Shown here piece after piece: positions 7,953-63,694 of a stretch of DNA of 64,000 nt. A program made the translations under genes and the position numbers. Within the stretch, counting starts at the first letter, position 1, and every line of letters starts with the position of its first letter. Source of the stretch: a virus (taxonomy: Duplodnaviria > Caudoviricetes); IMG/VR virus record IMGVR_UViG_3300028048_001169, positions 1 to 64,000 of that record; one strand, 5' to 3'. Under the pieces are notes generated by a model. It saw only the letters and a program-made list of their open reading frames with translations, was not told the origin of the DNA and did no database searches.

Positions 7953-8837
7953 GTGGGATTATTTGAATCTTTAGACAATATAACACCAGAAGAGGAGATC
8001 CCTACGAACGTTGATTTAAATATCAAGTTCAGTACTTTGGAATATACATATGATACGTTTCTTAAGAAACTAGAGACAAACAATATTACAGATGTACAGA
8101 TTGAGAATGAGATTTTATATTACTATAATAATCTATGTAATTATGATCGATTTAAACATTCTGAGACTCGTGAAACATTCCAGAAGATTTGGACAAATGA
8201 ACGATTCTTGAATGTATTCTGTAAGTTATGTCCTAGACTTATGAAAGATCCAGATTTCCAGAATAATGGATTTTATAATCATACAATCTGTAAGATTGCT
8301 TATGATTATTATTCTGAGTATGGTAATAAAGAAGGAATGTTCAGAGGAGTAACAAGCATTCTATTTAGAATTGTAGAGACTCTAAATGCAAACCAGATTA
8401 TTCCATTAACAGCTTATATGAATGAAATTCATGCAATGTTTATCATACTAGCTTCTAAAAGTAGCTTTGATCCATATGAGTGTGTACAGCGAGTTAATGA
8501 ATTCATTATGCGATTAGGATATGATTTTGATATATCAACTATCGTATATATCTACAGCTTATTATACTCTAAGAAATTCAGTGAATTATTCATAGCTACT
8601 ATGATTCAGACATATGACCTTGATACATTAGATACAAATGAGAAGACGATGTATTATCGAATCAATCGTACTTTACTTATGATCTTAAATAGTATGCCGA
8701 GTGGAGAGATTTGTACCGTTATTAAACGCTACGATAATTTCTTAAACTTAGAGCCTCATCCAGTAAGATTTAATCTGATGGAGAAGGCTAGAGAATATGA
8801 AAGATTATACGATAATATGCTTCATGCATATGATTAA
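7953..8837 (+). CDS. hypothetical protein
   Basis: GGAGG RBS, GTG start, 294 aa, terminator at about 8847-8883. Confidence 0.8.
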   Translation: MGLFESLDNITPEEEIPTNVDLNIKFSTLEYTYDTFLKKLETNNITDVQIENEILYYYNNLCNYDRFKHSETRETFQKIWTNERFLNVFCKLCPRLMKDPDFQNNGFYNHTICKIAYDYYSEYGNKEGMFRGVTSILFRIVETLNANQIIPLTAYMNEIHAMFIILASKSSFDPYECVQRVNEFIMRLGYDFDISTIVYIYSLLYSKKFSELFIATMIQTYDLDTLDTNEKTMYYRINRTLLMILNSMPSGEICTVIKRYDNFLNLEPHPVRFNLMEKAREYERLYDNMLHAYD

Positions 8838-8968
8838 AATAGTAACCGATAGGAACAAATTCCTATCGGATTATTATTTTTTTGGAATTCTTCATAATTA
8901 TAATCATATACTATAAGGGTGTAACGTAAAAGTGTCTAAAAAATAAATAGAATTGGAGGAAAAGACAC

Positions 8969-9640
8969 ATGAAACATTTAGGTATTGAGGTAACATTCAC
9001 AGAAGACGTACTTGGTATGATGCCAAGCAACCCAGACGTAGTGAGCGAGTACATTGCGTCAAATGCACCAGATGCTAAGACTAAGAAAGAGGAGATCGAA
9101 GCAATTGGTGTTGAGGAGATGGAAAATAAGGCAATGACCATCTTCCCGAGAACAGAAGATGGAAGACCAATGTTCTGGGATTACCAGGTACTTGGTTTCT
9201 TTAAAGAAGCATGTTCTATGCTTCGTAGAGAAAAGAATGAAGAAGAGGCAAAGCACTCTTCTAAGCTGGCAGCTTTTAAGAAGACTATTGATGGAAATAT
9301 TCGAGTATATCCTCGTAGAATTCCTATCAATGCATCTGGTGAGCTGGGTAACCTGCAGCGTCCATTACGTGCATCTACACCACAAGGTGATCGAGTAGCA
9401 CTTGCATCATCTGAAGTTGTACCTGCTGGTTCTAAGATGAAGTTTATCGTAGAGTGCCAGGATGATTTACAGAATGTAATCATTGAGTGGCTTATGTATG
9501 GACGTAAGCATGGCACTGGTCAGTGGAGAAATTCCGGTGCTGGAAGATTTATCTTTGAAGCAACAGATCTCGACACTTCAGAGATTATTGCTAGATCTGA
9601 GGAGCATGATCCATCTAAGGATTATGATTTCTTAGATTAA
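8969..9640 (+). CDS. stand-alone Cas7/Csm3-like RAMP protein
   Basis: RAMP motif order: N-terminal strand ending DVLG; FPRTEDGRPMFWDYQVLGFFKEA; EVVPAGSKMKF; C-terminal glycine loop GTGQWRNSGAGRF; own promoter (8904), RBS and terminator. Confidence 0.75.
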   Translation: MKHLGIEVTFTEDVLGMMPSNPDVVSEYIASNAPDAKTKKEEIEAIGVEEMENKAMTIFPRTEDGRPMFWDYQVLGFFKEACSMLRREKNEEEAKHSSKLAAFKKTIDGNIRVYPRRIPINASGELGNLQRPLRASTPQGDRVALASSEVVPAGSKMKFIVECQDDLQNVIIEWLMYGRKHGTGQWRNSGAGRFIFEATDLDTSEIIARSEEHDPSKDYDFLD

Positions 9641-9658
9641 TAGTAATTCCATAAACAT

Positions 9659-9704
9659 AAAAAAGGCTGGTGGAGAGAGCTTTCCACCAGTCTTTTATTT
9701 TTTT
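9659..9704. terminator. bidirectional intrinsic terminator
   Basis: GGCTGGTGGAGA-GAGC-TTTCCACCAGTC stem with an A-run before and a T-run after. Confidence 0.85.
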
Positions 9705-9836
9705 GCCAATAGCTGTGTGTTGTATAAAAGTATTCAGGTAGAGGGTTTACAAAGCAAAAACAATATGTAGGATCATGAAATAAAATAGTAGGAAAATTCA
9801 AGATTCAACAAAAATGAACACGGCTATCGACAAATT
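9705..9836 (-). ncRNA. candidate stem-closed small RNA convergent with the RAMP gene
   Basis: AACA-AATATA-TA promoter at 9847-9836 (-); GTCGATAGCCGTGT (9831-9818) pairs with ACACAGCTATTGGC (9718-9705), 13 of 14 pairs counting G-U; no RBS-led ORF. Confidence 0.5.
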
Positions 9837-9873
9837 ATATATTTGTTATTTACTTGATAATTTTAAACAGATT

Positions 9874-9885
9874 AACACATTAATA
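9874..9885 (+). promoter_or_regulatory. putative late promoter AACA-N6-TA (AR9 nvRNAP-type)
   Basis: Exact motif also at 4834-4845(-), 5425-5436(-), 5509, 7706, 9836-9847(-), 25047-25058(-), 25075, 28129, 53029-53040(-), 57444; mostly upstream of virion genes. Confidence 0.75.
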
Positions 9886-9910
9886 ATTCTAATAGAAGTG
9901 GAGGTCTATT

Positions 9911-11113
9911 ATGGCATCTATAAATTATGGTAAAATGACATCCGTTATTGCGGATAAATTATATCCATTTGTCGAAGTACATTTGGTAAAACGAGAGCGA
10001 CAATATAAAGCAGTTATTGCTGATTTCATGAATAAGAATCATGATATATTGTATGAGGTTGCTCCTTATGATAATATTTTCTTTACAAAAACAGATATTC
10101 TTAAATTTTTTATGGCTTTAGATATAAAAGAATCTGAGGTAAAAGCAATTACAAATGACTGTTACTTTGCTCATAAACCAGTCAATCCACCAGTGGTTAA
10201 AGTACCATATGCTCAGGTACTGGTTTGTATTTTGATGTATTATCTTAAACATAAGAAGCAAAAAGAAGCAGAGATTACATTACTCTATATGGCATTTAGT
10301 GGTAAATTTTATGCCAGCATCTTCGGTAAATATTTCAAAACAGCACCACCTAGCAAGTATCGTTCCACTATGGATTACGTTGTAAATAATATGCTAAATG
10401 ATAGATTTGATTTACGATCTAAAGGAAATTTATTCGGTGCAATTCGTAGTATGTGTATATCTCTCATTGAAATGTATGGAGATACATTAGCTGGACATCC
10501 AGATGATGAGGAGATCAAATACTTCATGCAGCAGTTACGAGATCGTGAAAATACTTTTATGAATCGTATTTTCAATCTTTATATTACAGCATGGCAAGAT
10601 AAGAAATACTTGAACTATGAATCAGATAATCTGGAAGATGGTTCTGAATTTAGAATCAGTGATAGTGATGCAACGATTGCTGCTCGTATTACAGAGAATG
10701 CTTTGAACTATATGCTAAATAATACAGTAAGTTTGAAGATCTGTAATATGTTTAGCGATGCAAATATCCGTCCAACAGAATTACGAGATATAATAGAAGC
10801 AATCGTAAATGATCGTAAGAATATAAATCAGTTACAACGTGTTATTAATATTCTGATTTGTGATTTTATGAAGAAGAATCCGAACAAACGTGTTGGTGAC
10901 GTTGACTTCTTGGGATATTGTCTCAAAGAACAACCAAATACTAAAGATGAGTATATTATCGAAATGCAAAGCATTATCGTAAGTTGGTTGGATGATAAGA
11001 GTCCTAATTATCGTCGACGTAAGAGTAGAAAGGCTACTGAGATTAGTTATCGAAAAGCCATTAAATTCTACATTACTATGGTAATAGCAAACGTAGCAAA
11101 TAAAACAAGGTAA
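9911..11113 (+). CDS. conserved-looking late protein, function unknown
   Basis: GGAGG RBS, 400 aa, late-type promoter. Confidence 0.75.
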   Translation: MASINYGKMTSVIADKLYPFVEVHLVKRERQYKAVIADFMNKNHDILYEVAPYDNIFFTKTDILKFFMALDIKESEVKAITNDCYFAHKPVNPPVVKVPYAQVLVCILMYYLKHKKQKEAEITLLYMAFSGKFYASIFGKYFKTAPPSKYRSTMDYVVNNMLNDRFDLRSKGNLFGAIRSMCISLIEMYGDTLAGHPDDEEIKYFMQQLRDRENTFMNRIFNLYITAWQDKKYLNYESDNLEDGSEFRISDSDATIAARITENALNYMLNNTVSLKICNMFSDANIRPTELRDIIEAIVNDRKNINQLQRVINILICDFMKKNPNKRVGDVDFLGYCLKEQPNTKDEYIIEMQSIIVSWLDDKSPNYRRRKSRKATEISYRKAIKFYITMVIANVANKTR

Positions 11114-11128
11114 AGGAGGAAATGTATT

Positions 11129-11683
11129 ATGAATCCAGGAAAAGTAGGAACAACAGTTGTAGACAATGGTGTAACTTTATCTCCACCGTGGGATACTCAT
11201 TTCAAGAAGATTTGGAATCTGTTCAATGGTGATCCAGAGGTTGATGTTGATGATGAGCTTGTAGAGACCGAGACTGGTACTTATGAGTTTACAATTCATT
11301 GTGTTAACCCTGTAAAGCTGGCTGCTATTAAGCAGGTTGTTAAGTCTGAAGTTATTATGGGTAACGTTAAACTGAAGGTTAACTTTGAATTAGTAGATCC
11401 TAATGATGGTCATGATGTTGATGGCATTGGAACAGCTGTTATTGAGGCTGCTTTCAAGGGTAATCCTAACTTTGATCGTTGTGAGCTGGTTAAGGTTCCA
11501 TTTAGTAATAGTAGTCGTGGATATGCTGTATTTAAGAAAGGTATCATTCAGTTCTATAATGATGATCTCACAGATATCTACGGAAATTATAGCGATATCG
11601 TTGCTAATGTTGCTACTGATATACGCGATGATAAGAATAAACTTACTCAGAACGTATCATTTTGTACAGATGTAGAGGAATAA
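11129..11683 (+). CDS. hypothetical protein
   Basis: AAGGAGG RBS, 184 aa. Confidence 0.8.
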   Translation: MNPGKVGTTVVDNGVTLSPPWDTHFKKIWNLFNGDPEVDVDDELVETETGTYEFTIHCVNPVKLAAIKQVVKSEVIMGNVKLKVNFELVDPNDGHDVDGIGTAVIEAAFKGNPNFDRCELVKVPFSNSSRGYAVFKKGIIQFYNDDLTDIYGNYSDIVANVATDIRDDKNKLTQNVSFCTDVEE

Positions 11684-63639: not shown

Positions 63640-63694
63640 ATTATAATAGAAGAAACTTATTAATAATCTTATAAAGAAAGGATGATTATTATTT

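What the first reader, a model, noticed from the sequence alone, without database searches (positions are those of the whole stretch)
9659..9847. Unannotated promoter-driven, stem-closed small RNA facing the RAMP gene
Seen: the 270-bp gap after the RAMP gene is long for this genome. On the minus strand an exact AACA-N6-TA promoter (9847-9836) lies 5 nt before GTCGATAGCCGTGT, which pairs with ACACAGCTATTGGC about 100 nt downstream. Pairing is 13/14 on this strand versus 12/14 on the plus strand. The transcript would end at the RAMP gene's bidirectional terminator, giving about 175 nt. The enclosed ~100 nt is pyrimidine-rich, looks weakly structured, has CTAC three times and no RBS-led ORF. I see no clean GGY/NN or CRISPR register, at most a weak 5-nt bias. 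Inference: a closing stem presenting a long single-stranded loop suits a guide or scaffold for a Cas7-like filament, or a late RNA that titrates the early protein.
Basis: partly seen in the sequence, partly recalled or inferred. Interest (0 to 1): 0.72.

Follow-up and report, generated by a model that had tools for sequence, protein, structure and literature searches.

The report
Conserved late small RNA, not RAMP-linked
The gap after the RAMP gene of this cattle-gut jumbo phage holds a candidate ~180-base non-coding RNA gene (late promoter, closing stem, terminator). Its architecture recurs in eight related phage lineages, but it goes with the neighbouring structural gene, not with the Cas7-like RAMP gene.

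Summary
On the minus strand an exact AACA-N6-TA motif (9847-9836) is followed after 1-4 nt by a 5' arm that pairs with a 3' arm 99 nt downstream. A hairpin that scores as a terminator on both strands follows, giving about 178 nt. No coding frame is conserved.

Taken alone, both the motif and the stem are near chance level. The support is comparative. Seven other lineages of related AR9-like jumbo phages carry the same architecture between the p294 and p400 homologs. The arms have different, co-varying sequences, and an AACA or AACT-N6-TA motif lies 0-4 nt before the 5' arm.

None of these relatives has the RAMP gene there, so the RAMP gene is an insertion specific to the window's clade.

The RAMP protein does fold like Cas7/Csm3. 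It fits the recently described VIPR systems, whose guide RNAs are GGY/NN pentamer repeats. Pentamer-periodic arrays flank 75 of 80 homologs. In this genome one lies at about 224,100-225,060. The gap has no such register.

Verdict: a probable new late non-coding RNA family of unknown function. Transcription is not shown. The guide or scaffold reading is not supported. The scan noted this same stretch once more (e1-5467439), not on other DNA.

The parts
9836..9847 (-). Late (nvRNAP-type) promoter motif AACAAATATATA. The predicted start site is the final A, at 9836.
   Evidence: Sequence. AR9 consensus AACA-(6N)-TA/G, with the last base as the start site (PMC5312081). Invariant in 12 strain variants. 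An AACA or AACT-N6-TA motif sits at the same place in 7 other lineages.
9818..9834 (-).
   Evidence: Folds and helix table: 16 pairs, 14 of them Watson-Crick, one mismatch.
9719..9817 (-). 99-nt interior. It is pyrimidine-rich, weakly structured and not conserved in sequence between lineages.
   Evidence: Strain variants carry a 9-11 nt indel next to the 3' arm.
9702..9718 (-). 3' arm of the closing helix.
9659..9704 (.). Hairpin that scores as an intrinsic terminator on both strands. It ends the RAMP gene's transcript on the plus strand and the predicted small RNA on the minus strand (U-run 9664-9659).
   Evidence: + 9661-9696 then ATTTTTTT; - 9690-9667 then CCTTTTTT.
9874..9885 (+). Divergent late promoter AACACATTAATA of the p400 gene, 26 nt before the ATG at 9911. 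It is the conserved neighbour of the element.
   Evidence: score 15.1. A matching plus-strand motif lies 20-34 nt before the start codon in nearly all p400 homolog loci.
9911..11113 (+). p400 gene (phrog_2921; its homolog is annotated as a structural protein in one phiR1-37 record). This is the gene the element travels with.
8969..9640 (+). 223-aa Cas7/Csm3-fold RAMP gene (Vipr-like). It is context only and not part of the element.

Best explanation
The stretch 9659-9847 on the minus strand is most likely a stand-alone non-coding RNA gene of an AR9-like jumbo phage.

Proposed working:
- A late promoter of the AACA-N6-TA class is read by the phage's own non-virion RNA polymerase and starts transcription at 9836.
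- The first about 20 nt of the RNA pair with a segment 99 nt downstream. This closes the molecule into a panhandle.
- The hairpin shared with the upstream gene terminates the RNA at about 9659, giving about 178 nt.

The gene sits back to back with the late promoter of the p400 gene and belongs to the p294-p400 intergenic region. The RAMP gene was inserted next to it only in the window's clade.

What is shown: the sequence anatomy, its conservation and the co-variation of the helix.

What is inferred:
- That the RNA is transcribed, and late.
- That the closing helix hides the 5' end and stabilises the RNA.
- That the RNA acts in trans through its lineage-specific interior, on an RNA or protein partner not yet known. 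I hold this as the most likely mode at roughly 35-40%.
For: 1. Eight lineages with p400 identity of 54-62% share one arrangement: upstream gene, terminator, arm, 84-131 nt interior, arm, 0-4 nt, minus-strand AAC(A/T)-N6-TA, 8-26 nt, plus-strand AACA-N6-TA, p400 (table).

2. The helices are 11-23 positions long and perfect or nearly so. Five relatives tested (L005, L117, L116, L034, L101) each had 0 of 300 shuffles as good.

3. Arm sequences differ between lineages. Own-partner pairing is 10-12 Watson-Crick pairs of 12, against a mean of 8.0 for cross-lineage partners. L116 against L005 shows three adjacent two-sided substitutions (ATA/TAT to CGC/GCG) plus paired indels (by eye).

4. The promoter class is plausible here. 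The window encodes a homolog of the nvRNAP specificity subunit. Gene-proximal sites share an extended consensus, AACA-T-N4-A-TA-AT. In L113/L114 the equivalent leftward promoter sits 46 nt before a 124-codon ORF.

5. In the window, the two mismatches of the plus-strand helix are G-U pairs on the minus strand. Two strain polymorphisms turn them into A-U pairs.

6. The terminator is scored on both strands.

7. The stretch does not look coding: frame-breaking indels between strains and no conserved ORF.

8. The body diverges 3-4.6% between strains, against 7-10% at four-fold degenerate sites. This trend is not significant on its own.
Against: - There is no expression evidence. The only metatranscriptome contigs available were too shallow and patchy to say anything about transcription here.
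- Taken alone, the window's promoter match and stem are near chance.
- Thermodynamics does not fix the strand. L123's single imperfect pair is G-U on the plus strand and A-C on the minus strand, and both strands fold better than shuffles.
- No interior motif or inner helix is conserved beyond chance, so there is no handle on function.
- Purifying selection on the body is weak, and no stronger than in the neighbouring p294-RAMP spacer.
- L122 and L123 have AACT instead of AACA.
- Many more distant p400 loci lack the element entirely.
- L005, L117 and L116 are one sub-clade, and the arms of L034 and L101 resemble each other. The number of independent lineages is therefore nearer five or six than eight.
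Confidence: 0.6

Rival explanations
1. The element acts in cis and its RNA product does not matter. One version: the inverted repeat works on plus-strand read-through transcripts, for example as a double-strand RNase processing or insulating site between the upstream operon and p400. Another version: leftward transcription only helps to open the nearby p400 late promoter.
For: - The helix forms equally well on the plus strand in most lineages, and better in L123.
- The element always sits between a terminator and the p400 promoter.
- The interior sequence is unconstrained between lineages.
- AR9 nvRNAP recognises its promoter in single-stranded template form, so local melting matters (PMC5449584).
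Against: - It does not explain why a minus-strand promoter motif abuts the right arm within 0-4 nt in all eight lineages.
- It does not explain why the left arm is followed by a hairpin with a U-run in the minus orientation.
- In the window the minus strand pairs better (13/14 against 12/14), and strain changes keep the minus-strand pairs.
- A cruciform with a central spacer of about 100 nt is kinetically unlikely in duplex DNA (general knowledge).
Confidence: 0.15
2. One reading: the RNA is the nucleic-acid partner of the adjacent Cas7-like RAMP, as a guide, a scaffold or a titrating decoy.
For: - The RNA lies next to a gene whose product has a true Cas7/Csm3 fold.
- Its interior is long and weakly structured.
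- VIPR loci do carry their guide RNAs in the flanking intergenic DNA.
Against: - The element is present without the RAMP gene in all seven related lineages.
- It is absent beside the RAMP homologs examined (L001-L004, L121).
- The RAMP family's flanking arrays have a 5-nt G period on the sense strand in 75 of 80 loci. The gap has none: lag-5 autocorrelation is -0.15, and there are no RGY-NN-RGY steps on either strand.
- The genome holds a proper array elsewhere, at about 224,100-225,060.
- The RNA is on the opposite strand to the RAMP gene.
Confidence: 0.04
3. There is no function. The spacer is leftover DNA: a decaying divergent gene whose promoter survives. The stem and motif in the window are coincidences.
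For: - Window-only statistics are near chance.
- L113/L114 have a protein gene at this position.
- Many relatives have only a short gap.
- Constraint on the sequence is weak.
Against: - Perfect 13-23 bp inverted repeats with different sequences at the same position in several lineages are not expected from decay. Each of five tested relatives had 0 of 300 shuffles as good, and own partners pair far better than cross partners.
- Compensatory changes separate L005 from L116.
Confidence: 0.1
4. The spacer encodes a small protein on the plus strand.
For: In L005, L117, L116, L122 and L101 a purine-rich or GGAGG-like box is followed by an ATG on the plus strand inside the interior. L005 and L117 share part of the peptide (read by eye).
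Against: - The window and L034 have no such ORF, and L123 has the box without a start codon.
- The ORFs are 14-45 codons with unrelated sequences and different ends.
- L005 and L117 differ by compensating frameshifts.
- No plus-strand promoter lies between the terminator and the ORF.
Confidence: 0.03

Closest known systems
vrRNAs of VIPR systems (Vipr RAMP plus GGY/NN tandem-repeat guide RNAs; bioRxiv 10.64898/2026.04.26.720920)
   Same: A non-coding transcript of about 100-180 nt, predicted in the intergenic DNA flanking a phage RAMP gene.
   Different: It has no pentamer register on either strand. It lies on the opposite strand to the RAMP gene. It is conserved in relatives that lack the RAMP gene. 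It has a 5'/3' closing helix instead of a repeat tract followed by a 3' tail. The genome's real candidate array lies elsewhere, at about 224.1-225.06 kb.
Late and antisense transcripts from AACA-(6N)-TA/G promoters of Bacillus phage AR9 (PMC5312081)
   Same: The same promoter class. AR9 has late promoters that do not lead into a gene, seven of which drive antisense transcription.
   Different: The AR9 cases are antisense to genes. This one is a discrete intergenic unit with its own helix and terminator, conserved across lineages.
phi29-family packaging RNA (pRNA)
   Same: From my own knowledge, untested here: an RNA of about 170 nt from a phage of Gram-positive hosts. Its 5' and 3' ends pair in a closing helix, and its structure is conserved while its sequence is not.
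   Different: There is no match to any Rfam family, at permissive thresholds for the window and at gathering thresholds for the relatives' loci. No inner structure is conserved. Jumbo phages of this group are not known to need such an RNA. This is a resemblance of form only.
Bacterial trans-acting small RNAs with C-rich, anti-Shine-Dalgarno loops (for example Staphylococcus RNAIII and Rsa RNAs, Bacillus RoxS)
   Same: A stand-alone promoter-to-terminator unit. L116, L122 and L123 carry GGUUCCUCC in the interior.
   Different: In the window's RNA, complementarity to a Shine-Dalgarno sequence is at chance (p = 0.44). The motif is shared by three related lineages only.

Membership tests
VIPR vrRNA | Tract of 9-16 tandem YNNGG (GGY/NN) pentamers | tested here: not met
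   In the gap, G autocorrelation at lag 5 is -0.15 (interior) and -0.08 (whole gap). There are no RGY-NN-RGY steps on either strand. The genome's array at 224,100-225,060 has 59 per kb.
VIPR vrRNA | Co-occurs with a vipr (RAMP) gene | tested here: not met
   It is adjacent in the window's clade only. Seven related lineages keep the element between p294 and p400 with no RAMP gene. The L005 record has no RAMP homolog.
VIPR vrRNA | Conserved structured 3' tail; co-purifies with Vipr | not testable with these tools
   Needs RNA sequencing and pull-down.
AR9-type nvRNAP late transcription unit | AACA-(6N)-TA/G motif with the last base as the start site | tested here: met
   AACAAATATATA at 9847-9836. 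Consensus from PMC5312081. The weight-matrix score of 9.0 is within the range of gene-proximal sites but not discriminating.
AR9-type nvRNAP late transcription unit | The phage encodes the promoter-specificity subunit (gp226-like) | tested here: met
   Window 43289-44788 matches proteins annotated as the nvRNAP specificity subunit in Staphylococcus jumbo phages and an RNA polymerase gene of phiR1-37 (23-27% identity, E down to 7e-10).
AR9-type nvRNAP late transcription unit | A mapped 5' end at the predicted start, appearing late in infection | not testable with these tools
   Only shallow assembled contigs from RNA runs were available, and they say nothing about transcription here.
Structured non-coding RNA family | Helix kept across relatives through changes on both sides | tested here: met
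   Helices of 11-23 positions in 8 lineages. Own-partner against cross-partner matrix. Compensatory ATA/TAT to CGC/GCG between L005 and L116. No formal R-scape-type test was possible because the interiors do not align.
Structured non-coding RNA family | Match to a curated Rfam family (including pRNA and 6S) | tested here: not met
   No hit at gathering score in the seven relative loci scanned. In the window (9000-10500, E-value mode) the best hit overlapping the element has E = 1 and scores far below its gathering cut-off.
Intrinsic terminator, bidirectional | GC-rich hairpin followed by a U-run on each strand | tested here: met
   One search lists the hairpin on both strands.
Miniature inverted-repeat mobile element | Several copies in the genome; promoter-independent placement | tested here: not met
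   Single copy in the 225-kb genome; the best other match is 12 nt. Its position relative to promoter and terminator is fixed in all lineages.

The most novel reading that the evidence does not exclude
The fixed frame (late promoter, closing helix, terminator) presents a lineage-specific interior of about 100 nt that carries targeting information. That would make it a phage-encoded programmable antisense or decoy RNA aimed at host or rival-phage transcripts, or at a host RNA-binding defence protein. Each lineage would have swapped in a new interior while keeping the frame.
Probability: 0.1. Interest if true: 0.8.

Novelty: new member of a known kind. Interest (0 to 1): 0.45.

Why it matters
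Jumbo phages of the AR9/PBS1 type transcribe their late genes with their own polymerase from very simple promoters. No discrete, conserved non-coding RNA gene under such a promoter turned up in the papers I searched and read here.

A candidate with clear boundaries, a co-varying helix and eight natural variants is a ready test object. It can be used for nvRNAP promoter use, for termination in both directions and for late RNA-based regulation in uncultured gut phages.

Separating it from the RAMP gene also matters. It removes a false lead for the VIPR-type system in this genome and points to the real candidate guide array at the contig end.

Tried and rejected
- **Rfam:** a permissive E-value scan of the window region and a gathering-threshold scan of seven relative loci found nothing relevant. 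ARAGORN found no tRNA or tmRNA.
- **Similarity searches:** near and distant DNA searches of the gap against phage records gave only chance hits.
- **RNA runs:** contigs of four runs labelled metatranscriptomic were laid on 8700-11200. X21 covers parts of the RAMP and p400 genes at depth about 4 and does not cover the gap. X22 and X23 are probably DNA. This is uninformative.
- **Pairing with the p400 5' UTR:** no better than shuffles in any lineage.
- **Anti-Shine-Dalgarno idea:** significant only in L116, L122 and L123, and at chance in the window.
- **Shared interior motifs:** none beyond shuffles.
- **Antisense targets or further copies in the genome:** best match 12 nt.
- **Similar units elsewhere in the genome:** a scan for promoter-plus-helix units found no second intergenic case.
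- **Alignments:** MAFFT alignments of the eight RNAs were structurally inconsistent. I therefore built no covariance model and ran no column-wise pair count; helices were compared with scripts instead.
- **Shared terminator sequence:** it recurs in unrelated viral contigs L118 and L119, which gave no further members.
- **Missing DNA:** contigs for P0001, P0158, P0159, P0164 and one P0167 place could not be fetched. P0159 and P0164 have gaps of 479-509 nt before p400.
- **Other readings:** the inverton and mobile-element readings were rejected because arm sequences differ between lineages, the promoter lies outside the repeat and the element is single-copy.

Full report
**What the window is.** The window is the first 64 kb of a single 225,070-bp contig with 33% G+C. 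The 400-aa product of 9911-11113 (p400) has distant homologs in AR9, PBS1, vB_BpuM-BpSp, Listeria phage LPJP1, Staphylococcus jumbo phages and Yersinia phage phiR1-37, one of whose two records annotates the homolog as a structural protein. The window also encodes a homolog of the nvRNAP promoter-specificity subunit and a divergent family-B DNA polymerase. Sequencing runs that hold the stretch are mostly cattle-gut metagenomes. This is an uncultured AR9-like jumbo phage. AR9 late promoters are AACA-(6N)-TA/G with the last base as the start site (PMC5312081; PMC5449584).

**Checking the observation.** All stated features are present:
- The gap is 270 bp, against a genome median of 64 and a 90th percentile of 215.
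- AACAAATATATA lies at 9847-9836 on the minus strand.
- The 14-nt arms are 9831-9818 and 9718-9705, pairing 13/14 on the minus strand and 12/14 on the plus strand.
- The interior is 99 nt.
- A hairpin scores as a terminator on both strands.

The minimum-free-energy fold of the minus strand uses the closing helix, extended to 17 positions, plus the terminator hairpin. On its own this is weak:
- The six-base motif is not enriched in the genome or in intergenic DNA.
- A weight matrix from 23 gene-proximal sites scores this site 9.0, a range dominated by hits inside genes.
- The stem is matched by 2% of shuffles.
- About 10% of all such motifs in the genome have a comparable helix.
- The repeat finder did not report the arms at a seed of 6.

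The plus strand carries AACACATTAATA at 9874-9885, 26 nt before the p400 start codon. A plus-strand motif of this kind precedes nearly all p400 homologs. The gap therefore holds a terminator, about 170 nt of spacer and two back-to-back late promoter motifs.

**Strain variants.** Twelve near-identical contigs align across the gap.
- Both promoter motifs are invariant.
- Indels of +9, -2 and -3 nt fall in the interior, which argues against coding.
- Four substitutions fall in the arms. Two turn minus-strand G-U pairs into A-U, one sits at the existing mismatch, and one breaks a pair.
- The body diverges 3-4.6%, against 7-10% at four-fold degenerate sites. This is a trend only.

**Related lineages.** Loci found through p400 show that seven other lineages have the same architecture between the p294 and p400 homologs. 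These are L005 (same contig as L033), L117, L116, L034, L101, L122 and L123 (same as L124), with 54-62% p400 identity. The order is terminator, left arm, interior of 84-131 nt, right arm, then 0-4 nt to a minus-strand AAC(A/T)-N6-TA, then 8-26 nt to the plus-strand promoter (table).
- Helices are 11-23 positions long and perfect or with one mismatch. Five tested relatives each gave 0 of 300 shuffles as good.
- Arm sequences differ between lineages. Each 5' arm pairs with its own 3' arm at 10-12 Watson-Crick pairs of 12, against a cross-lineage mean of 8.0. The exceptions are the pairs L005/L117 and L034/L101, which have similar arms.
- Between L005 and L116 three adjacent pairs changed on both sides.
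- In L113/L114 (65% identity) the leftward promoter motif precedes a 124-codon ORF instead. This supports the view that the leftward promoter is real.
- More distant loci have only a short terminator-promoter gap.

**Which strand.** Folding energies do not decide. The window favours the minus strand and L123 the plus strand. The conserved minus-strand promoter motif abutting the right arm, and a hairpin followed by a U-run in that orientation, make the minus strand the economical reading.

**Function.** I could not pin it down.
- No interior motif is shared beyond chance.
- There is no significant pairing with the p400 leader.
- There is no second copy or long complementary site in the genome.
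- There is no Rfam family.
- An anti-Shine-Dalgarno motif is confined to three related lineages.

I commit to a stable late trans-acting RNA whose closing helix protects the 5' end. That step is inference.

**The RAMP gene.**
- No Pfam, PHROG or PADLOC model matches the protein. NCBIfam gave only a Csm4 hit far below its cut-off.
- It has about 4,600 homologs.
- A confident model (pLDDT 85.6) matches Cas7 of type VII and Csm3 of type III complexes.
- None of the element-bearing relatives has this gene in the locus.
- The ORF-free DNA beside RAMP homologs in L121, L002 and L003 shows a strong 5-nt period of G. So do 75 of 80 further loci, always directly upstream or downstream of the gene.
- A literature search then found the VIPR preprint, which describes phage RAMPs (Vipr) guided by GGY/NN pentamer-repeat RNAs. 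That explains the pattern.
- The window's own genome has such an array at about 224,100-225,060, outside the window.
- The gap 9641-9910 has no register at all.

The small RNA is therefore not a vrRNA, and the RAMP link fails.

**Verdict.** The element is probably a real, new late non-coding RNA family that goes with the p400 promoter region.

Noticed in passing
Own genome G000:C1:224,100-225,060 (outside the 64-kb window; contig end), with window 8969-9640: An array of about 950 nt of degenerate pentamers (RGT-NN, for example GGTAA AGTAT GGTAA AGTGC) lies on the plus strand. G autocorrelation at lag 5 is 0.43-0.55, against a genome mean of -0.02 (sd 0.06). Arrays with the same 5-nt G period directly flank 75 of 80 homologs of the 223-aa RAMP in viral contigs. 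This fits VIPR systems (Vipr plus GGY/NN vrRNAs, bioRxiv 10.64898/2026.04.26.720920). Here the array and the gene would be about 9 kb apart if the contig ends join.
   Followed up: partly
Own genome 224,686-224,812 and 224,955-225,070: A segment of about 115 nt within the pentamer array occurs twice, the second copy running to the contig end. It could be a true internal duplication, terminal redundancy or an assembly effect.
   Followed up: no
window 8846-8869 and 8870-8968: A second hairpin that scores as a terminator on both strands follows p294, and a 100-nt spacer precedes the RAMP gene. The RAMP gene thus sits as a cassette between two terminators, consistent with insertion into the ancestral p294-p400 spacer.
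   Followed up: partly
window 13730 (+), 54315 (-); genome 161827 (+), 189416 (+): Sites reading TTTACAT-N4-ATAAT (TACA instead of AACA) lie 25-46 nt before gene starts. AACT variants lie at 63654 (+) and, outside the window, at 75122 (+). These may be tolerated variants or a separate promoter class.
   Followed up: no
L113:1493-1867 (-) and L114:104-478 (-): In the closest non-strain relative, the place of the small RNA is taken by a 124-codon ORF behind the leftward late promoter motif. The protein was not characterised.
   Followed up: no
L005:2812-2950, L117:1796-1890, L116:1823-1873, L122:1903-1947, L101:1423-1494 (approximate): Plus-strand short ORFs of 14-45 codons sit behind purine-rich or GGAGG boxes inside the interiors of some lineages. 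They are unrelated in sequence and absent from the window.
   Followed up: partly
Genome 157621 (+), 75030 (-), 67429 (-) (outside the window): Three other intergenic matches to the late-promoter matrix (scores 9.6-15.8) have no gene within 800 nt downstream on that strand in my crude gene call.
   Followed up: no
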